NCBI RefSeq assembly: GCF_025526975.1
Contig: NW_026515687.1
Coordinates: 248,001 to 312,000, forward strand
Direction of reading: 5' to 3'
DNA length: 64,000 nt
Source: Fimicolochytrium jonesii
Taxonomy: Eukaryota
Shown here: in pieces, positions 9,718-55,301 of the stretch
Numbering within the stretch: the stretch's first letter is position 1
Layout of the letters: every line of letters starts with the position of its first letter
Notes under the pieces: model-generated
What the model was told of the DNA's origin: nothing
The model's database searches: none
The model's input: the letters and a program-made list of their open reading frames with translations, nothing else
Program-made: the position numbers and the translations under genes

Positions 9718-12700
9718 CTACGCACCGCGCGCACGCGCAACAACCTCCCTCCACTTGTCGACGTCCGCGGCCTGCACGCCCGCCCACCCCTGCATCGTGT
9801 GCAAGACCCCGCTTGCAAACTCGACATCGGCGTTCCTGACCGCCGCGTCGATGATGAGGGTGAAGGTCTCGGTGTTGCGCAGGTGGGGCGGCATTTTGGC
9901 GGTGTAGTATGCTTTGGCGGCCGTGTAGCCGTCCGCGGTTTGGTGGGCGAGGAGGAGGGTCAGCGCGGCGTTTTCGAGGGGTGTTGTCGGGCCTGCGTGG
10001 GGAAAACCAACCACAATGATTAACTCTAGAAGAGAGTATAAAGAAAGTGGGTGGGGGGGAAGCGAAATCTGTAACTCACGTCTCTTGGTAGCATCAAACG
10101 CCGCCCTGAACTTCATCGCCGACACCGATTTGCCCGCTTGGGTGAACGCGCCCACAAGCACCTCGTACGTCCCCGTCGACACGCCCAACCGGCGTACACG
10201 GGTCATCTCCTCGTACAGCTGGTCCGCCGCGTCCAGGTCCCCGTGCCGACACGCAAACGCAATCAGGGCCTCAAACACATCTTCATTGGGGGGCAGGTTC
10301 TTCTGCACCATCATGGTTTTCACAGCGAGGAGGTCGGGGAGGGTGGTGCCTTCTTTCCGCGCGAGGCCGGATATGATGAGCGCGAATGTGTCGGCGGCCA
10401 TATGCAGCCCTTTCGATTCGGCCAGCTTCATCACGCGCAGGGCTTCAGGAAGGTCACCCGCGGCGCTGTATGCTTCAACGATGGCGCTGAAAGGTGGCAA
10501 GCTCAGTGTTTTATCCCAATGCTCGTCGACGTATTCTTCAAACAGCTGTTCGGCGGCGGAGAGGTCGTTGGAGATGCGGGAGTAGTGGGAGATCATCCCG
10601 GCGTATACGGTGTCGCGGAGGGGCAGGCCGAGGCGTTTAAGCTGCGCGAAGGTCTGTTCGACTTGGGTGTGTTTGCCCGCGCGTTGGTACATCGACACGA
10701 GGGCGATGTAGACTTCCTCCGCGAACTGTTTCTCGAGGGTGGTGTGTAGTGTCTTCTCGATGGTTTTGTATTCCTCGAACACCTTTTCGATGTTGGCCCA
10801 TTCGGATTCGCCTAATGTTTGTTGTGCGGCGGCGTAGTTGAAGAAACGGGTGAAATGCTTGGCTTGGTAAGGGTTTCGGCCGAACTTGGTCGCCATCTCA
10901 GCCATGATGGCGCTGACCTGGTTCACGCGGCCGTTCCTGGACATGAAGGTGAGCGCGATGGTTTGCGCGACGGTATCTTCGAACGCGTGGCGGGTACCCT
11001 CCTGGCATTTGGAAGCATATTCTAGGGTCATCTCGACGACTTTTGCAGCGGATCCGAGGTCGTTTGCAGTGGCTTTGAGCAGCTCTGCGATGGTCGAGAG
11101 TTGCGGCGCCTTGCTGCGTTCGTACAGGTACTTCATGAGCTCCACCGCCTCGTCGATCCGGTTTCCTCTGAGGTGCTGTTTGATTTGACTGTCGAGGCGC
11201 TGCGTCTCGTGCGGCATAAGCACCGCTTGGGCTTGTTCCGGGGTTACCTCTGGGGCGTTCAGACCCAGTTCACTCATCGCCTGGTTCCATTTGATGGCGT
11301 AGTCCGGCATGGGAGGGGTTCGCCGCGGCAAACTGGTTACGCCCATATCGCAAATTGTCTGGTTCGGTGCAATCCCGAGCCGCTTCATGTCATCTAGATA
11401 CCGTAGCAAGCGGATGCCAAATTCGTAATTGCGGAAACTACTATGGAACAAGGCGTGGAACAGGGTTTCAAAGTCCGTTACGGACAACTTCGGTTCCTTT
11501 TGCTGCCTGACCGCTTCGTCATAGGTGTAGGTGAGAGCTTGCGCGGAGTGGCTGTACAACGCGGTGTGTCTGTCTACCATTCCTACACGGTGGACTTTCA
11601 ACAGCAAACGCACATCGCTGTGCCGCAGCTTTGTGATGGCCATTGCCAGAGTGTGCCGGCTTTGACGAGCTTGCAATGCCGGATTGTCGCCGTACGCAAC
11701 TAAAGCACGCTCGAATAGGTCGACAATATCAGCTTCCCGGTTCGCTGCCTTGAGACTAGTCACCAGCGCTCTCGTAAAGGGCGGCGAAGGATTGAAGGCG
11801 GCTGCACAGATCATGTGGAACACCTTGAGCCCCGTCTCTATATCGTCCTTCTGGAGACACAGTACGGCATAGTTTGACAAGAGCTGAGCGTGGCGACGGA
11901 CGGCTAGATGGTCGTTTTCCAATAGAGCGACGATTTTCCCAGCGATTTCCAGATGTCCCTCTTTCACGGCGGGCTCCAAGAGTTGGCTAACGAGGTGTCC
12001 GTGCTGCCTCCCTGAGCTGTGGTCTTTGCCTATCTCGTCCAGCAACTGCTTGGCGCCCTCGATGTTGCCACTGAGCACGAAAAGGCGAGCCAAAGCGGAC
12101 CGCGTTGCCATGCTTACTGTCGCCGCCTTCGGGACGACATTTTCCAAGATGTCTTGAGCCGCCGCATAGCGACCTGCCGCCGTCAAAGCCGCGGCAAACG
12201 CGACATATCCCTCCTCCCTGCGGCTCACGCTCGATTTGGTGAAGTTCTCATACCACTTCTGCGCTTGGTACAAGTCGCCCGTCGCACCATAGACCTCGAT
12301 AATCGCGGCGTACGTCCCCGCCTGCGGCTTCAGGGACAGATTTCCGACAACCTTGATCCAATCCTCAACGCGGGAAACATCACGCCGCCTCCCGAGTACG
12401 CGGAATATGAGGGTCAATAGCGAAGCCCCGATTTCCTTCTCATAATCCTTCAACCCAAGCCCGACCACTTCCTCCAACGGGTCCAGCAGCCTCGGGTCGA
12501 GCAGCTCCTGCACCTTTTTCTCCGTCCTCAGAATGAGCCCTGCAGTCCCCTCCGCCCCCTTCTCACTCTTCTCCCGCAGACTATCCAGCTGACTCTCAGC
12601 CGCCTCCCGCTGCGACTGTCGTGACGAATCTTGATCTGCATATACTTGCGCAAGGGTCAGGAGAAACTCGGGCATCGGCTGGACGCCCGTCGATTTCATC

Positions 12701-13170
12701 CGGGTCCAAATCTGGTCCGCCCAGACTGCGTTCTTGGTTGTTGACGCTACTATGCGTTGGAGGTAGTGGGTGTAATGCTGCGATGTCCAGTTCGCGGTCG
12801 TAGATGGATCTTCTAATTTCTTCTGTGTCGCATTGTTGCCACGCCCATCGAAGAACTGATCTATATCTGCCCGCACGCTGTCCGGCACCGCGGTGCCAGA
12901 ACCGCTCCTACTGAAGTTGTTGAGGCCTCTCCGTGAACTTTCCTCCGGTTTGCCAAGTCCGCCGACCTTCAACGCCTCCCTTGCCAGGACTGCCTCTGCG
13001 CTTGGGGTTGCTTCTGGGGTTGCTTCTGTGCTTGCACACCTGGCGGGTACGAGAGCATTGCTCGACGGGCGGGCGAGTGGGGCTCTTGTTTCCGAGGCCC
13101 GACACCGCGCCGTGACATTTAGCAGATCACGGACCGCAAGACGGCGTGCACGGATGCTTCTGGGCAGCAT
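9718..13170 (-). CDS. Pentatricopeptide-repeat (PPR) protein, probably mitochondrial
   Basis: ATG at 13170 with Arg-rich presequence-like start MLPRSIRARRL. PPR-like units (TYAAIIEVYGATGD, VYAGMISHYSR, VFEALIAFACRHGD). Probable in-frame intron 10079-9993. Confidence 0.8.
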   Translation of the reverse strand: MLPRSIRARRLAVRDLLNVTARCRASETRAPLARPSSNALVPARCASTEATPEATPSAEAVLAREALKVGGLGKPEESSRRGLNNFSRSGSGTAVPDSVRADIDQFFDGRGNNATQKKLEDPSTTANWTSQHYTHYLQRIVASTTKNAVWADQIWTRMKSTGVQPMPEFLLTLAQVYADQDSSRQSQREAAESQLDSLREKSEKGAEGTAGLILRTEKKVQELLDPRLLDPLEEVVGLGLKDYEKEIGASLLTLIFRVLGRRRDVSRVEDWIKVVGNLSLKPQAGTYAAIIEVYGATGDLYQAQKWYENFTKSSVSRREEGYVAFAAALTAAGRYAAAQDILENVVPKAATVSMATRSALARLFVLSGNIEGAKQLLDEIGKDHSSGRQHGHLVSQLLEPAVKEGHLEIAGKIVALLENDHLAVRRHAQLLSNYAVLCLQKDDIETGLKVFHMICAAAFNPSPPFTRALVTSLKAANREADIVDLFERALVAYGDNPALQARQSRHTLAMAITKLRHSDVRLLLKVHRVGMVDRHTALYSHSAQALTYTYDEAVRQQKEPKLSVTDFETLFHALFHSSFRNYEFGIRLLRYLDDMKRLGIAPNQTICDMGVTSLPRRTPPMPDYAIKWNQAMSELGLNAPEVTPEQAQAVLMPHETQRLDSQIKQHLRGNRIDEAVELMKYLYERSKAPQLSTIAELLKATANDLGSAAKVVEMTLEYASKCQEGTRHAFEDTVAQTIALTFMSRNGRVNQVSAIMAEMATKFGRNPYQAKHFTRFFNYAAAQQTLGESEWANIEKVFEEYKTIEKTLHTTLEKQFAEEVYIALVSMYQRAGKHTQVEQTFAQLKRLGLPLRDTVYAGMISHYSRISNDLSAAEQLFEEYVDEHWDKTLSLPPFSAIVEAYSAAGDLPEALRVMKLAESKGLHMAADTFALIISGLARKEGTTLPDLLAVKTMMVQKNLPPNEDVFEALIAFACRHGDLDAADQLYEEMTRVRRLGVSTGTYEVLVGAFTQAGKSVSAMKFRAAFDATKRRELQISLPPHPLSLYSLLELIIVVGFPHAGPTTPLENAALTLLLAHQTADGYTAAKAYYTAKMPPHLRNTETFTLIIDAAVRNADVEFASGVLHTMQGWAGVQAADVDKWREVVARARGA

Positions 13171-13631
13171 CGCTGTGGTGGGGCTGCCTGAGCTAGGTAT
13201 TAGAGACGACCACGCAGGGCTGGGTCCAGGCAGCACATTTGCGATTTGCGCAAGTGGGTTTGCAGCTCGGAAAGTTGCCTTGGATTGAGGGCGTGATCAC
13301 GTGGGGAGTTTAATGTCTCGGCTCGGACTCCAGCGACCTCCACAAGCTAAGGCGATGGTCGTGACAATCTTTGGCTGTGATGTCGAACCTCAACTCAGGA
13401 TTCCACCAATAACACCCCCCACGAGTTTTTCGGACGGGTCCCTGGCAGGCGGAGGCTATCAGTCCACTCTGACGCGGAAGCATTCAGGGCCGGTGTATAG
13501 TCAACGACCTATACCTATTGTTGAAGTATACCGACGGCGAAAAGAGTATGTCTTCGTACGGGGAGGCCGGGAGCATTGCGTAGACCTTGAACACCAGAGC
13601 GTCTCTCATTGCGGGCGGCCTCAACCCTGCG

Positions 13632-15949
13632 ATGACCCCACAGTTCCTTCGCATAGCAGCACTTTCGCTCCTCCTCCACCTCGGTTTCCTATTCTACGGG
13701 TTCGTCCAGGACCAACACCCCGTCGTAAAATTTACCGACGTCGATTACCTCGTCTTCACCGACGGCGCCCGCTTCGTTGCCGAAGGCAAATCCCCCTACC
13801 AGCGTGCGACGTACCGCTACACACCCGCTCTTGCCTTCCTCGTCCTCCCCAATGTCCTTGTTCACAACTTGTGGGGAAAGCTCCTGTTTTCCGTATGTGA
13901 TCTCGCGGCGGGATGGTTCACCCACAGCATCTTGCGAATGCAAGGGATGAACGCGGACCGCGCCGCGAAGTATTCGGCGATATGGCTCCTGAATCCTTTT
14001 GTCGTCGCGATATCGACGAGGGGCAACGCGGAGAGCATTGTCGCTGTTTTGACTCTGGGGACGCTGTGGACCCTTTTGGCCAAGCGGCCGCGATTGAGTG
14101 CAGTGCTGCTCGGTGTTAGCGTGCACTTCAAATTGTATCCGATCATATACGCCTTGCCGATATGGCTGTTTCTGGATGAGAGCTACTTTGGTGGAATACG
14201 TAATGGAATGGCTCCCGGGACGCTCTTACAAAGAGCTAAGCGATTCTTCTCGTGGCGCAGGATCGAGTATGGGTGCCTTAGCGGGATGGTATTTTTGGGC
14301 TTATCAGGATGTATGTTCAGCATGTAAGGACATTCCTGGATCTTCAGCTTCTGGGATGTGTGCCGGTCAAATTGATTCGTGTATTGGCGGATCGTAACGC
14401 AGATACGGCGACGAGTTCGTCGAAGAGACATATCTCTACCACATCACGCGAAAAGATCACCGACACAACTTCTCGGCGTACTTCTACCACATGTACCTTT
14501 CCTCCGCCCCTTCGAAAGTAGCCAGCTCGGCAACGCTTCCACCATGGGTCGCTTCGATCCTATCGTTCCTGCCGCAGTTGGGGCTGGTATCACTCCTGGG
14601 GACCTTCCTAGCAAAGGACGTCGTGTTTGCGTGCTTTGCACAGACTTTCGCGTTTGTCATGCTGAACAAGGTTTGCACGTCTCAGGTAGGTTGGGGAGTG
14701 AGAATGTGGAACCGTGACTGGATGGAGAACGCGCGTACTCAGATATGCCGACCTTTGCAGTACTTCATGTGGTACCTATGCTTCCTCCCCGTGATACTAC
14801 CAAACAGTCGACTGCTCGCCGACAAATGGAAGCAAGGAGTAGCTTTGCTGCTCACCTGGGTTGGCGGACAGGTGAGAAGCCACTTTGCGCTGACTATTAC
14901 AGGCATCCCACACTCACGCGCAACAACCGTGGCAGGCACTCTGGCTCTCACAAGCATATCGCCTCGAACATCTCGGTGAAAACACTTTCCGCAAACTCTG
15001 GGCAGCGGGACTCGGCTTCTACCTCATCAACGCGGTACTTCTCTCCACTCTGATATCCTCTCACACATATGAGCCTTTATTGGTGAATGGGAGTATAAAA
15101 CCAGCTTTTGGAAGGGGCGGGGTTTCACACACCTCGGTGAAGGATAGTCGGAAAGCACGACCGATTGTTAGGCCCTCCTCAAGTCGGGCTGTGAAGGAGG
15201 ATGAGAAAGAGGAGCCGGCGATTGTGGAAAAGTTGGAACTGGTGGAAAAGAAGTTGGGGGAGGGGGCGACACAGTTCGTTGTGCAGCGGAAAGCAGCTGG
15301 TTCATCTATAGGAGGCATGTTCGCGTTATTTGGAATAGCCGTTGGGATCGGGATCATGATGGTAAGCGGATCTGGTGCAAGTCCGAATTGGGAGTGGAGG
15401 TATCTTGAACTAAACCCGGTTTGAAATGCTTCGGCCTCGACTTAGCACAGAATGCTTGACTGCTCTATCCCTCTCTGCGCATTACCATTCGCTATCTTGC
15501 TCGCCGCCCATCTATCCGCGGTGCGTCAAGGTACGACCCCCTCCCTTCTTTCCTCCGCCCACCCATCCCACATCCGTCAATCTGATCCCCCAACCTTCCA
15601 TCTCCTCAGAATCAATAACATTCATCGGCTCCCTCGGCGTCTCCCTCCAAACAACCTACTCCCTCGGCCGCACCAAGTCCCGCTTCATACCCCTCGACCG
15701 CATCGCCGACGTCATCATCAACGAGGGGATCACGATGCTGACGGTGCGGTATTACATGGCGGTTATGGTGAAGGGGGAGAGGGAGATGATTGTGGTTTTT
15801 GAGGTAGGTTGTTTGCCTGGGGCATGAGGGGTTTATTTGGGAAGGAGATTGATTTGTGTTGGATACAGAACTTTATGCCGAAGATTGATGTGCTGAGGAA
15901 GGTGTATAAGAGTGGGAGGAGTATCTTGTTTGATCCGGTAGAGGGATGA
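13632..15949 (+). CDS. GPI14: GPI mannosyltransferase I (PIG-M/Gpi14), reading in frame into a PIG-H/Gpi15 domain (putative fusion gene)
   Basis: Exons 13632-14323, 14403-14685, 14761-14871, 14936-15361, 15446-15530, 15610-15803, 15869-15949, all GT-AG. PIG-M motifs KFTDVDY, SPYQRATYRYTP, STRGNAE, RKDHRHNFS, NKVCTSQYFMWY. PIG-H motifs ESITFIGSLGV, FIPLDRIADVIINEG, YYMAV, VVFENFMP. Confidence 0.8.
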
Positions 15950-16306
15950 GGGGGGTTTTTTGGCCGTGGGCTCGGCAGAAGACGGTGTATTTGTCCTTCG
16001 ATGTATGAGTTTCGTAGTATGGAAGTAGTCCATTGTAGCCTACCGTCGCAGCAAAGAGGTGCTACTTGTTTACGATGAAATGGATATGCACTGCCTATCC
16101 CTATTTTGCTGGCACTCGCAACTTTCCCTTGATGCTGTTGTGCGGGTTGAGATCCGAGACGCGCTGTCCGCCTGCCTGGACATGTTTTGCATGCTCAACT
16201 TTCGCAACCGGTTTCTGGCTCAGGGCCGTGAATGGAGGACAACGATAGACACCAAGTGACCGACTTCCGCATTCTTTCACGTTCTTTCAAGAAATAGCCT
16301 CCAGCG

Positions 16307-18576
16307 ATGCCAAGGTGGGTGAGCGCAGCACCGGGTGGAAGCGGCCAAGGCAATCGCAACTCAAAACAGACTTGTTCATTCCCAGGGAGATCATCACCCT
16401 TCAAGCAGGGCAGTGCGGAAACCAAGGTATGAGAACTTTGCACATCTTGTACACTACGACGCTTATGTATTGCGGCCCCGGCCAAAGTCCCGAAATATGT
16501 GCATAGGCGTGCGCTTTGTATTTCCATTTGTTAACCCAATTCTTGCAGTGGGCCAGGAGTTCTGGAGTCAATTATGCGCAGAGCACGGAATCAGCCCTGA
16601 TGGGACGCTGAAAGAGTACGCGACCGACGGGACGGATAGGAAGGATGTGTTCTTCTACCAGGTCAGGATAGGCGCCTGGGATGTTGTCGGAGGGGAGATC
16701 ACATGTGCAGACTTCTGACCGTACGACCAGGCCGACGATGAGCATTACATTCCACGCGCGCTACTGCTGGATTTGGAGCCTCGAGTATGTACTTCATCAT
16801 CAATTGCATTACCCTCGACTGGGGCCGGATTGCTAAACACGCAGCACCTCGCATTCCCCAGGTCATCAACAACATCCTAACATCCCCCTACGCAAACCTA
16901 TACAATCCCGAAAACATCCTGCAATCGAAAGACGGGGGAGGTGCCGGGAACAACTGGGCGGCTGGATACGCCCAGGCCGAGAAGATCCACGAAGATATAA
17001 TAGAGATGATTGATCGAGAGGCTGATGGGAGTGATAGCTTGGAGGTACGGGTGGCCGGCAGTGGGTGGATATGTGCAGAGACTTCGGGGCTGACGACAAG
17101 ATTATAGGGGTTCAATCTCCTCCATTCGATTGCGGGAGGCACAGGGTCCGGATTGGGATCGTCGCTGCTGGAAACGCTGAACGATAGATACCCGAAGAAG
17201 TTGATTCAGACGTATTCGGTGTTTCCGAATAGTCAGGAGACGAGTGATGTGGTAGTGCAGCCGTATAACTCTATGCTGAGTCTGAAGCGATTGACGCTCA
17301 ATGCTGACTCGGTGGTATGTGCTGTCACAGTCTAACACCATCCTGGCTCTAGGTAGCGCTGATAGAAAACCTACTTGTTTCTTTAGGTGGTCCTCGACAA
17401 TGCGGCTCTCAATAGGATCGCCGCTGACACCCTCCATATTCAAAACCCAACATTTGCGCAAACGAATCAATTGGTATGTTCAGCTCGCGTTTCGAAGTGG
17501 TGAACTACAAGGCCTTGCTAATTCCTCCCCTCTCAGGTATCCACCGTCATGAGCGCGAGTACCACCACCCTACGATACCCTGGCTACATGAACAACGACC
17601 TCGTGGGCATCATCGCTTCCCTGATCCCAACACCGCGATGCCATTACCTCATGACCAGCTACACACCGTTCTCTGGGGAGCAAGTTGAAAAGGTCAGTAC
17701 ACCCACTACCGGTGATAGCCTATTCGTGGCGGGTTTCGGTGGACTTACGTTCTGTAAACACGCAGGCAAAGAGCATCCGGAAGACAACGGTGCTGGATGT
17801 GATGCGGAGACTGCTGCAACCAAAGAACAAGATGGTGTCGATCACACCGTCCAAAAAAAGTTGCTATATTTCCATTCTGAACATTATTCAGGGAGATGCG
17901 GACCCAACAGATGTGAGTATACTTACGGCTTTCCCGAATTGTGTCATACCTACGGTGCTCATCACTTCCCATTTGCGTTAAATAGGTGCACAAATCATTA
18001 ATGCGTATACGAGAAAGGCGGCTTGCACAGTTCATTCCATGGGGACCTGCTAGCATCCAGGTCGCGTTGTCGAAGAAGAGTCCGTATATACCGACGGCCC
18101 ACCGTGTTTCAGGGCTGATGCTGGCAAATCATACCAGCATTGCATCGGTGAGTACTGCCAAGGGAAGCGCCGAATTGCTGGATAAACAATCGCTGACCTC
18201 CCCCGCTTTCCCTTTTGCAGTTGTTCAAACGCACAATGGATCAATACGACCGCCTGCGTAAGCGCAACGCGTTCTTGGAGCAATACCGTCGAGAACCGAT
18301 GTTTGCGGATGGGTTGGATGAGTTTGATGATTCGAGGTTCGTTCTTGCACGCGGGGACTTTGAATCGATAGAAAGCGATTTGCAGATCTGGCACTGACTA
18401 GGGCAATGTGCGCATGCTGTAGGGAGGTTGTGCAAGAGCTAATCCATGAGTATGAGGCTTGTGAGAGCCCTGATTACATTAGCTGGGTAAGTCTTTTCTC
18501 ATTTGGTGTGTCTCGTTTTCTGCTTTGATCTTCGTGACACTTTTTTTTCATTTAGAATTCAAAACAACCAGTTTGA
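16307..18576 (+). CDS. TUB4: Gamma-tubulin
   Basis: Spliced start [16 protein letters not shown]. Motifs [60 protein letters not shown]. About 12 short GT-AG introns. Confidence 0.95.
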
Positions 18577-27981: not shown

Positions 27982-29608
27982 ATGGACACCAACCGGCGAA
28001 AACGCAAAAGAACTCATAGGCCCAACAACAGACAGACACCGCTTGCCAAGGTGAAGCGAGAGATTTCCCCTGACCGCGACCGCGGCCGTGACCGTGCTCG
28101 TGAGGATCATGATGCCGAGACTCTTCACCGCCGCACGAAAGCGGCACTGGTAATTCAGAGGGCATACTGGCTGCTGCGATTTCGGCGTGCTATCAGAGGA
28201 GCAGGGTCGGGTTCGCAACACTCTAGGTGAGATTGAAATGCCGCGACACTCTTCGACATTACCGCCGACCGCTTGAGGCAGCCTGCATTGGGCGGCCTCG
28301 CGATATGCTCGCGACTTCGCGGTACACCTGACGGTATCGATCGCATGAGGCAGCCTGCAGTGGGGCGGCCTCGCGGTTCGTTTGCAACCATTCTACCTCG
28401 CCGCCATTCTACCTCGAAAACCCACTCCCATGCCCACATGACGACCTGCCTACTTCGCCTCAACTAACTCACGTACACTCCATTCCTCAGGCAAATCACC
28501 ATGAACGTGTCGAAGTCAAAGCCGGCACGACGTTCCAAAGCCTCCAGGAAAGCTTCCAAGGCAAGAAACCAACAGCACAAACTCAAACAGCATGAACACA
28601 TGCGGGAGCTATTGAAGACGGCGGGTGATACTGAGGCTGGAACTGAGCATAGAAGTGTTCACCAAGGTTCGTCGCATTATGCTGTCAGACCGTCTCTTCT
28701 CAACTTACAACGCAGCTGACCAACTGTTGTGTGTGGCCTAAGGTTCCAACGACAGTGCGTACATAATGTGGACAACAAGAAAGACCGAGCAGCAAACCAA
28801 CCCGCATCCGTTCGGAAAGCACCTTACGCACGAAGACTTCCTCGAGCAATATACTGGGGGAGTTGATCACGATCACCCGTACACCCGTCTGCATAGGAAC
28901 ACCGTTGTTGTAGCCGACCGCGCAACGGATGAGATTGTCTGTGTGGCAAGGTTTCGTCCGTTTGCGGATATGTCAGCGGTTGACAGGGACCGTTTCGAGG
29001 AGATCGCGCTCCACCTGGGCCGCCAGCAACAACTCAGCGGCAACATACAAGCTGAGTCGCCGAAGATTGAGGAGCATTATATAGACTTTCTCAATGAGCT
29101 TTCGCCTTACGTCTTGTCTCGCATCAAAAACCGGGCAAAGGAACTACGCGTGTCTAGTATTCCACAAGCGCAGTTTGGGGACCTCGTCGCAGACGACTCT
29201 TTTGCCAGCAACATCACCGCAACATGGGATGACTGTGCCACTAAGTTCCAACGTGATAACGATCAATCAAAATTCACATACGGAATCTGGTTCCCAGTCT
29301 CGAACAAGACGGGCAAGCTGAAAAGCAAGGCGGATGGATTTGCCTGTCATGGTGGAGCCTTTGTGAATGCGGACTACCGCATGTACGTGGACTTTGATGC
29401 GTGCGACGGCGTAGTCGAGATCATTTGGCGAGGGTCTGAGGATGCACACGCAACCACATCGTCTGTCAGAGGCCCTGACTCGAAACGCCTGGGCACATCT
29501 GTCCAAGTCAACGAAAAGCTGGCAAAACGTGTGGAACGATTGTTGCAGCTACGGGAGGCCGCGGGACGCATCTGTGGGCTTACGGAGACTTTAGAGCGAT
29601 TGCGCTGA
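27982..29608 (+). CDS. TET/JBP-like 2OG-Fe(II) dioxygenase-family protein, possibly catalytically degenerate
   Basis: Exons 27982-28226, 28491-28666, 28743-29608 with compatible phases and branch-like ACTAAC/GCTGAC (428 aa). Motifs VARFRPF, FASNIT, YGIWFP..TGKL, GGAF, VDF..GVVEIIW, distal H(AT), RLGTSVQV resemble fungal Tet-like oxygenases. The HxD position reads QRD. Confidence 0.6.
28274..28375 (+). repeat. Two ~30-bp imperfect direct repeats (tgaggcagcctgca.tgggcggcctcgcg) inside intron 1 of the TET-like gene
   Basis: Seen directly at ~28274 and ~28346. Confidence 0.8.
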
Positions 29609-54347: not shown

Positions 54348-54440
54348 GGGGGGCAGGTTTGCGTCTACCCTTCACCGTCATCACTCATCTGCTGAACACT
54401 CTCTCTCGCATCAAACCAAACCCCCCGCAAGGTCAACAAC

Positions 54441-55301
54441 ATGCAAATCGTCGCTCTCGCCACTATCCTGTCTGCCTGCGTCGCACAGGTCGTCGCTCAC
54501 GGCAAGCTGACCTCCCCTCTCGGCTTGAACGTCAACCCCGCGGTCGCCCTCGACAGCCAGAGAGACGTCGCTCTCGGTGTTTCCAAGAGGAATGCATGTG
54601 GACGTGTCCTCGGCGGCGGGGCAAATGCCATTGACCGCACCGACACCACGCCCCGTGCCACTTTCCAAGCCGGCTCTTCAGCGGATATCGTCTACCGCAT
54701 CGTCAACCAAGATGGTGCTGGCCCGTTGACGGTCTCGTTTTCTCCCGACAACGGTCAGACATGGACGGACGCCGAAGTCACAACAAACGCCCCCGGTCGT
54801 GGTGGAATTAACCTTGCCAACCTCCGAGGTGGTGCGGATGCCACCGTCACTTTCAACGTTCCCAACATGGAATGCCCCGAAGGATCTTGCTTGATGCAAG
54901 TGAGGAATCCCATCTCTTTCGGATCTTGCGCTCCCGTCGCCGTCGGTGCTGCGCTCACAAACAACATCGTGAAGGACTTTGCCAACTCCGGAGGTGCGGC
55001 AGCACCTGCTGCTGCTGCAAAGGGTGCTGGAAGGGGGAGGAAGGCTGGTGCCGGTGCTGCTCGTGCCGGTGGTGCTCGTACCGGTGCTGCGGGTGCCGCT
55101 GCGCCCGCTGGCGGAAATGCAGGTGGTATTGCGGCCAGGATCAAGGCGATTGCGGCAAAGGCGAACGGCGGAGCTGCTGGTGCTGGTGCTGCCGGAGCCG
55201 GTGCTGCAAAGAAAGCGGCGGGAGCAGCCGGAGGATTGAGGGCTAAACTCGCAGGGGCGAGGAAGGCCGGTGGCGCGAAAGCCAAACAGGCGGCGGCTTA
55301 A
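54441..55301 (+). CDS. Secreted Egh16/GAS1-like (DUF3129) protein with Ala/Gly/Lys-rich tail
   Basis: Signal peptide ending VVA-H. Signature VNQDGAGP, VTTNAPG, C..G.C.MQVRN...FGSC. Confidence 0.7.
   Translation: MQIVALATILSACVAQVVAHGKLTSPLGLNVNPAVALDSQRDVALGVSKRNACGRVLGGGANAIDRTDTTPRATFQAGSSADIVYRIVNQDGAGPLTVSFSPDNGQTWTDAEVTTNAPGRGGINLANLRGGADATVTFNVPNMECPEGSCLMQVRNPISFGSCAPVAVGAALTNNIVKDFANSGGAAAPAAAAKGAGRGRKAGAGAARAGGARTGAAGAAAPAGGNAGGIAARIKAIAAKANGGAAGAGAAGAGAAKKAAGAAGGLRAKLAGARKAGGAKAKQAAA

What the first reader, a model, noticed from the sequence alone, without database searches (positions are those of the whole stretch)
13632..15949. Apparent in-frame fusion of PIG-M (Gpi14) and PIG-H (Gpi15)
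Seen: the last PIG-M exon (from 14936, ALWLSQAYRLEHLGENTF...) has no stop. It runs through a ~50-aa hydrophilic linker into two TM segments and a complete PIG-H domain ending at TGA 15947-15949. There is no in-frame ATG until 15317, at the first TM segment, and no intergenic space. Known: PIG-H belongs to the cytosol-facing GPI-GlcNAc transferase (step 1) and PIG-M adds the first mannose in the ER lumen; they are normally separate genes. Inference: a fusion would tether two non-consecutive steps on opposite membrane faces, hinting at a GPI metabolon or coupling around the flipping step.
Basis: partly seen in the sequence, partly recalled or inferred. Interest (0 to 1): 0.8.

Follow-up and report, generated by a model that had tools for sequence, protein, structure and literature searches.

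The report
Fused PIG-M–PIG-H GPI gene in chytrids
In this soil chytrid fungus and five related genera, the enzyme that adds the first mannose to GPI anchors (PIG-M) and a subunit of the complex that starts GPI synthesis (PIG-H) are encoded in one reading frame, which likely leashes two normally separate membrane complexes together.

Summary
The fusion is real at the DNA level. Seven exons (13632-15949) give a 623-residue frame without internal stop. It holds a complete PIG-M with its catalytic and donor-binding residues, a 40-residue variable linker, and a complete PIG-H. The first two strands of PIG-H's fold lie 28 codons upstream of the first in-frame ATG, so PIG-H cannot start there intact.

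Twelve database proteins from six genera of one chytrid branch (Spizellomycetales; PIG-M tree 96/96) carry both domains; other chytrids sampled are unfused. Linkers vary from 28 to 82 residues at 14% identity, and only 1 of 13 contains a Met. Both joined ends are cytosolic in published homologues, so no topology change is needed.

Best reading: a flexible leash that ties mannosyltransferase I to the GlcNAc-transferase complex. Coupling to lipid flipping has no support, and a near-neutral fusion is a strong rival. No RNA evidence was obtained and no whole genome was available. I found no paper describing the fusion, but one relevant fungal fusion survey was unavailable. This scan noted the same fusion before on another genome (e1-7219890).

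The parts
13632..14323 (+). Exon 1: start codon and PIG-M residues 1-231, with the DxD motif (D36/D38, 13737-13745), E134 and K167
14403..14685 (+). Exon 2: PIG-M residues 231-325, with H244, R247 and Q325
14761..14871 (+). Exon 3: PIG-M residues 326-362, with Y326 and W329
14936..15361 (+). Exon 4, the junction exon: end of PIG-M, tail, linker, PIG-H hairpin and first membrane helix in one uninterrupted frame (residues 363-504)
14936..15064 (+). Last PIG-M helices (residues 363-405); the Pfam profile ends at residue 402
15065..15112 (+). PIG-M cytosolic tail (406-421), 38% identical among genera, also seen in an unfused PIG-M
15113..15232 (+). Variable hydrophilic linker (422-461): no stop, no in-frame Met, 14% identity among genera, pLDDT under 50
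15233..15289 (+). PIG-H N-terminal beta-hairpin (462-480), strands 1-2 of the split PH-like domain, upstream of the first in-frame ATG
   Evidence: PMC9767466 passage
15317..15319 (+). First in-frame ATG after PIG-M (M490), inside the first PIG-H membrane helix; not conserved in relatives
15362..15445 (+). Intron 4 (84 nt); a second AG at 15449-15450 would give a frameshift and early stop
15446..15530 (+). Exon 5: second PIG-H hydrophobic helix (505-533)
15610..15803 (+). Exon 6: PIG-H core domain PF10181 (534-597)
15869..15949 (+). Exon 7: C-terminal helix of PIG-H (598-623) and stop TGA 15947-15949; missed by the public model P0001

Best explanation
This is one reading frame joining a complete PIG-M to a complete PIG-H, shared by six genera of one chytrid branch, and it likely makes a single ER membrane protein whose flexible cytosolic linker leashes GPI mannosyltransferase I to the GPI-GlcNAc transferase complex. 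Shown: the open frame, both domains, the intact PIG-M active-site residues, and a single branch of fused proteins on the PIG-M tree. Inferred from published homologues: 12 + 2 membrane helices with the join in the cytosol; the PIG-M half binding PIG-X/Pbn1 and adding mannose in the lumen; the PIG-H half assembling with PIG-A, -C, -Q, -P and -Y. Inferred and untested: the leash keeps the two complexes close and at 1:1 expression, so GlcN-(acyl)PI meets PIG-M near where its precursor is made, and this proximity is why the fusion was kept. It is not a rigid channel, because deacetylation, flipping and acylation by other proteins lie between the two steps.
For: Open 623-aa frame. PF05007 plus PF10181 on 12 proteins from six genera, and a 13th truncated model (P0134). 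In one search, 7 of the 120 listed proteins carry PF10181, and all 7 are of this branch. The fused rows form one branch, 96/96, 7 of 25 rows. Nine Gpi14 catalytic and donor residues are kept in 13 of 13 rows (three of them in 12 of 13, as P0007 lacks that exon; numbering from PMC12653191). The model matches Gpi14 9wno_A at Z 37.3, rmsd 3.5, 392 aligned. Residues 462-604 match EROS 8kei_D 1-146 at Z 8.9, rmsd 4.7, 127 aligned; PMC9767466 states that PIGH is predicted to share EROS's PH domain split by two membrane helices, with strands 1-2 before them. A Met lies in the linker in only 1 of 13, and P0121 has none in its whole PIG-H half. Both partners belong to one pathway, which a random neighbour fusion would rarely give (rough inference).
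Against: There is no transcript or protein evidence. The relatives are gene models whose DNA I could not read. No function was tested. The linker varies threefold in length at 14% identity, so geometry is unconstrained, as a neutral fusion would also predict. The other chytrids, fungi and animals sampled are unfused (113 of 120 listed lack PF10181), so the tether is dispensable elsewhere. Standalone PIG-H or PIG-X genes in these genomes were not checked. The EROS match is only just above the tool's noise level (Z 7-8).
Confidence: 0.5

Rival explanations
1. Near-neutral fusion. Two neighbouring ER-membrane genes merged once by loss of a stop. This was tolerated because both joined ends are cytosolic and both genes need similar expression, and it persisted because splitting again needs a new promoter, start and 3' end. 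The halves work independently and proximity gives no benefit.
For: Linker of 28-82 residues at 14% identity, disordered in both models; single origin; unfused in the other lineages listed; compatible topology (PMC12653191, PMC4404575).
Against: A random neighbour would rarely belong to the same pathway (about 25 genes among roughly ten thousand; gene total recalled). No case of re-splitting was seen among the 9 species labels with testable models. No other GPI gene turned up among 32 long ORFs of the window scanned, so there is no sign of a prior GPI cluster here.
Confidence: 0.3
2. Not one final protein: either two transcripts, with gene predictors merging two close genes, or one chain cut in the linker after translation.
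For: No RNA or proteomic data were seen; predictors do merge neighbours (P0196); an exposed disordered linker could be cut; an alternative acceptor at 15450 or retention of intron 4 would give a PIG-M-only product.
Against: In the window the junction lies inside one exon with no intron needed. A start at 15317 would drop strands 1-2 of the PIG-H fold. 12 of 13 linkers have no Met. The models come from four accession series (KNC, TPX, KAI, KAJ). No shared motif that could be a cut site is visible in the linker alignment.
Confidence: 0.08
3. In-cis chaperone. PIG-H has the fold of EROS, an ER chaperone of membrane proteins, and in the fusion it would stabilise or help fold PIG-M, perhaps easing the need for PIG-X/Pbn1.
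For: EROS is the best match for residues 462-604 among 48,161 chains (Z 8.9); PMC9767466 notes the shared organisation; the roles of PIG-H within GPI-GnT are unclear (PMC7125958); PIG-M needs a stabilising partner (PMC7125958).
Against: A shared fold shows no function. The unconserved long linker and poorly conserved PIG-H helices (17% identity) do not suggest a fixed interface. Pbn1 contributes a luminal domain (PMC12653191) that PIG-H lacks. PIG-X presence in these fungi was not tested.
Confidence: 0.07
4. One reading: the fusion builds a fixed machine that hands the glycolipid across the membrane, coupling step 1 to mannosylation around the flip.
For: The two activities face opposite sides, and the flip lies between them (PMC7125958).
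Against: The join is on the cytosolic side only; PIG-H is non-catalytic; PIG-L, the flip and PIG-W act in between (PMC7125958); the linker is unconserved and low-confidence in both models; a separate scramblase, CLPTM1L, is reported in mammals (reference title only).
Confidence: 0.05

Closest known systems
PIG-M / Gpi14, catalytic subunit of GPI mannosyltransferase I (Pfam PF05007; PDB 9wno_A)
   Same: Full-length domain, GT-C fold (Z 37.3), DxD motif and donor-binding residues all kept.
   Different: No stop after the last helix; continues through a linker into PIG-H.
PIG-H / Gpi15, non-catalytic subunit of GPI-GlcNAc transferase (Pfam PF10181)
   Same: Core domain 1-67/67, short N-terminal part, two hydrophobic helices, C-terminal soluble domain ending in a helix.
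   Different: Has no start codon of its own ahead of the fold; its N-terminus is tied to PIG-M.
EROS / CYBC1 (PDB 8kei_D), PH domain split by two membrane helices
   Same: Same predicted layout over residues 462-604 (Z 8.9, rmsd 4.7, 127 aligned); likeness to PIGH already noted in PMC9767466.
   Different: 12% identity; chaperone of NOX2, not a GPI protein; no evidence of shared function.
Lineage-specific fusions of same-pathway genes used as 'Rosetta stone' predictions of interaction (concept recalled, no call)
   Same: One lineage encodes on one chain what others encode separately.
   Different: Joins an enzyme of one complex to an accessory subunit of another complex, with three steps in between (deacetylation, flip, acylation), not consecutive enzymes or subunits of one complex.

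Membership tests
PIG-M/Gpi14 | Complete PF05007 domain | tested here: met
   Profile 1-259/259 across exons 1-4; P0001 E 1.4e-81
PIG-M/Gpi14 | DxD motif and Dol-P-Man-binding residues (C. glabrata D37, D39, E140, K173, H239, R242, Q318, Y319, W322) | tested here: met
   D36, D38, E134, K167, H244, R247, Q325, Y326, W329 in the window protein
PIG-M/Gpi14 | GT-C fold of Gpi14 | tested here: met
   9wno_A: Foldseek E 1.8e-21; Z 37.3, rmsd 3.5, 392 aligned, model 1-425
PIG-M/Gpi14 | Works with PIG-X/Pbn1 | not tested
PIG-M/Gpi14 | Alpha-1,4-mannosyltransferase activity on GlcN-(acyl)PI | not testable with these tools
   Needs complementation or an enzyme assay
PIG-H/Gpi15 | PF10181 core domain | tested here: met
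   1-67/67, E 1.4e-21, 76 bits against a cut-off of 25
PIG-H/Gpi15 | Short N-terminal part, two membrane helices, long C-terminal soluble part (PMC4404575) | tested here: met
   Strands 462-480, helices 487-508 and 517-527, strands 530-600; the helices have low pLDDT (about 47-56) and the second is about 6 residues shorter than in relatives
PIG-H/Gpi15 | PH-like domain split by the two helices (predicted for PIGH in PMC9767466) | tested here: met
   EROS 8kei_D Z 8.9 over 462-604; PH domains 3hsa and 3dcx Z 7.3-7.4 over about 465-601; Z values are modest
PIG-H/Gpi15 | Subunit of GPI-GnT with PIG-A, -C, -Q, -P, -Y | not testable with these tools
   Needs pull-down or complementation
Channelling metabolon | Joined parts catalyse consecutive steps | tested here: not met
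   PIGH is step 1 and non-catalytic, PIGM is step 6 in Table 2 of PMC7125958
Channelling metabolon | Fixed interface between the parts | tested here: inconclusive
   Linker unconserved and low-confidence; no contact map is returned and no complex prediction was obtained

The most novel reading that the evidence does not exclude
The fusion is a Rosetta stone: GPI-GlcNAc transferase and GPI mannosyltransferase I, on opposite sides of the flip, form one early-GPI assembly in all eukaryotes, with the EROS-like PIG-H as the organising subunit. Spizellomycetales have made that link covalent, and the fused protein could be used to purify the whole assembly, including PIG-L, PIG-W and the fungal scramblase.
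Probability: 0.2. Interest if true: 0.85.

Novelty: new variant of a known kind. Interest (0 to 1): 0.55.

Why it matters
GPI synthesis is described as separate enzymes and complexes, and the specific role of PIG-H in GPI-GnT is unclear (PMC7125958). A natural, viable PIG-M–PIG-H chain shows that the two complexes can be joined. It gives a direct test of whether early GPI steps are organised together: split the gene in a chytrid, or build the fusion in laboratory yeast, and use it as bait. It is also a candidate shared marker of Spizellomycetales. It corrects annotation too: these proteins are named as only one of their halves, and several models miss the last exon.

Tried and rejected
RNA evidence: no RNA holder was listed for 13500-16200; this is no evidence either way, and no reads were laid. 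Whole genome: none held, so standalone PIG-M, PIG-H and PIG-X copies were not searched. Complex prediction of the two halves was not available. The two single-chain models gave pTM 0.71 and 0.70, which says nothing firm about contact between the halves. The protein atlas gave no answer. The search with residues 400-604 found only P0001, although fused relatives exist, so that search is insensitive here. My own PIG-H profile found 11 of the 270 proteins then held and missed the partial PIG-H in P0134, so diverged remnants could be missed elsewhere. The metagenome scan gave 2 loci (37-41% identity), neither with a PIG-H hit nearby. No solved PIG-H structure was found by sequence. The acceptor at 15450 was rejected for the main form because it stops after two codons. 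The read-through end of the public model was rejected: exon 7 adds 21 bits against a profile of the other genera. A sequencing-error explanation was rejected because relatives share the open frame. The tail of Quaeritorhiza PIG-M (P0013) was rejected as a PIG-H relic: no hit, and it sits elsewhere on the tree. The first tree (40 rows) finished only as a quick search (SH-aLRT 92); the careful tree used 25 of those rows, with near-duplicates, most unnamed rows and the distant Fusarium and Branchiostoma rows left out. A 2012 PNAS survey of fungal gene fusions (recalled) was not held and may already list this fusion.

Full report
Observation. The region 13632-15949 holds one gene of seven exons: 13632-14323, 14403-14685, 14761-14871, 14936-15361, 15446-15530, 15610-15803 and 15869-15949. 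All six introns are GT-AG and 64-84 nt long; the spliced frame is 623 residues with no internal stop. Pfam places PIG-M (PF05007) over exons 1-4, ending at profile position 259/259 forty residues into exon 4, and PIG-H (PF10181, 1-67/67, E 1.4e-21) in exon 6. The junction lies inside exon 4 and needs no intron. The only in-frame ATG between 15040 and 15330 is 15317. Intron 4 has two AGs five bases apart; only the first (15445) keeps the frame.

Source and public model. The junction exon matches one database protein, P0001 (604 aa), which its source labels Fimicolochytrium jonesii, a chytrid of the Spizellomycetales. It is identical to my model through residue 597, so the public annotation already joins the two domains, though it names only PIG-M. 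It reads through intron 6. Exon 7 is the better end: it adds 21 bits against a profile built from 7 proteins of the other genera, and the matching helix forms in the model of P0271.

Relatives. A search with P0001 gave 2841 hits, of which 120 were listed; 7 of the 120 carry PF10181, and all 7 belong to Fimicolochytrium, Spizellomyces, Geranomyces, Powellomyces or Phlyctochytrium arcticum. Cluster look-ups added S. punctatus, further strains and two Gaertneriomyces proteins. Pfam confirms both domains on 12 proteins. A 13th, P0134, has the hairpin and helices but a derailed C-terminus. The Thoreauomyces model is a first-exon fragment and cannot be judged. Batrachochytrium, Polyrhizophydium, Chytridiales, Synchytrium, Cladochytrium, Quaeritorhiza and the anaerobic gut fungi have PIG-M without PIG-H. 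On a tree of the PIG-M domain alone, the 7 fused rows among 25 form one branch (96/96), next to the unfused Rhizophydiales (quick tree of 40 rows, 92). This fits one origin. Unnamed fragment rows such as P0272 cannot be scored as fused or unfused.

Why it is not two merged genes. From the last PIG-M helix to the PIG-H hairpin the spacer is 28-82 residues. Among six genera, identity is 60% in PIG-M, 38% in its tail, 14% in the linker, 36% in the hairpin, 17% in the two helices and 46% in the PIG-H core. A saturated linker that stays open and in frame has about a 5% chance in one genome and about 9e-9 over six, if the linkers are independent and free of introns; I could check the DNA only for the window. 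Only 1 of 13 linkers holds a Met, and P0121 has none in its PIG-H half (the script's 'True' flag for P0121 is an artefact of 'not found'). The AlphaFold2 model (mean pLDDT 80.7) shows strands 462-480 at pLDDT about 82 after a linker under 50. Residues 462-604 align to EROS from its first residue (8kei_D 1-146, Z 8.9, rmsd 4.7, 127 aligned), the best match for this part among 48,161 chains. This Z is modest. However, PMC9767466 (passages seen) describes EROS as a PH domain with strands 1-2 before two inserted membrane helices, and says PIGH is predicted to be organised alike. A protein starting at 15317 would therefore lack the first two strands of its fold.

Both halves look intact. The model matches Candida glabrata Gpi14 (9wno_A) at Z 37.3. 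The DxD motif and seven donor-binding residues named in PMC12653191 (abstract and Results read) are kept in all 13 rows, except three positions in P0007, whose model lacks that exon. That paper places both Gpi14 termini in the cytoplasm; PMC4404575 (passages) gives PIGH a cytoplasmic N-terminus and two helices. The join therefore needs no change of topology. No activity was tested.

Mechanism. Per PMC7125958 (passages), PIGH is an essential, non-catalytic subunit of step 1, and PIGM acts after deacetylation, flipping and acylation. The fusion ties an enzyme of one complex to an accessory subunit of another through an unconserved cytosolic linker. I infer a leash that gives proximity and 1:1 expression (0.5). 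A near-neutral fusion fits the linker equally well (0.3); what speaks against it is mainly the low chance that a random neighbour belongs to the same pathway, a rough argument weakened by the fact that same-membrane partners fuse more easily. Separate transcripts or cleavage (0.08), an EROS-like chaperone role in cis (0.07) and a fixed machine coupled to the flip (0.05) are less likely. CLPTM1L as a scramblase was seen only as a reference title in PMC13409885 (passages). The EROS structure preprint 10.1101/2023.09.11.557130 was seen as passages and does not mention PIG-H.

Limits. No RNA run was listed and no genome was held, so expression, splicing and standalone paralogues are open. No unfused PIG-M with a Spizellomycetales name appeared among the 120 listed, apart from the fragment found later; standalone PIG-H was not searched. 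Complex prediction and the protein atlas were not available.

Novelty. Seven full-text searches listed no title or abstract opening that describes this fusion; I saw listings only, except for the papers named above. The library lacks most subscription papers, and a 2012 survey of fungal gene fusions (recalled) was not held; its supplement may list this case. The scan noted the same fusion on another genome (e1-7219890); a search by sequence found nothing. Both parts are known families, so this is a new variant of a known kind: a solid, lineage-wide and testable fusion with an unproven function. Interest 0.55.

Noticed in passing
window 15441-15450: Two acceptor AGs five bases apart at the end of intron 4; the second, or retention of the intron, would give PIG-M plus hairpin and one helix with an early stop, a possible PIG-M-only form or decay target.
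   Followed up: partly
window 15804-15949; P0001, P0002, P0006, P0007, P0121: The public model P0001 reads through intron 6 and misses the last exon; four relatives' models diverge at the same point, probably the same error.
   Followed up: partly
P0134, P0271 (Gaertneriomyces): Shortest linker (28 residues) and a long PIG-M branch (1.41 against 0.1-0.5 for the other fused rows); P0134's model derails after the second PIG-H helix.
   Followed up: partly
P0129 (1058 aa), P0169 (930 aa): Two unnamed representatives carry a squalene/phytoene synthase domain N-terminal to PIG-M; either a second fusion or merged gene models.
   Followed up: no
P0013 (Quaeritorhiza) C-terminal tail: A short stretch loosely resembles the PIG-H hairpin; no profile hit and a different place on the tree, so probably chance.
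   Followed up: yes
window 9718-13296 (-) and about 16360-18500 (+): Neighbours are a large PPR protein gene, head to head with about 460 bp between the start codons, and a downstream tubulin-like gene (gamma-tubulin by recalled motif, not confirmed by a scan); neither is GPI-related.
   Followed up: partly
window 28742-29608 (+): ORF with a Tet-like 2OG-Fe(II) oxygenase domain (PF20515, E 7e-34).
   Followed up: no
window 54396-55301 (+): ORF with an Egh16-like domain (PF11327, E 3.9e-11).
   Followed up: no
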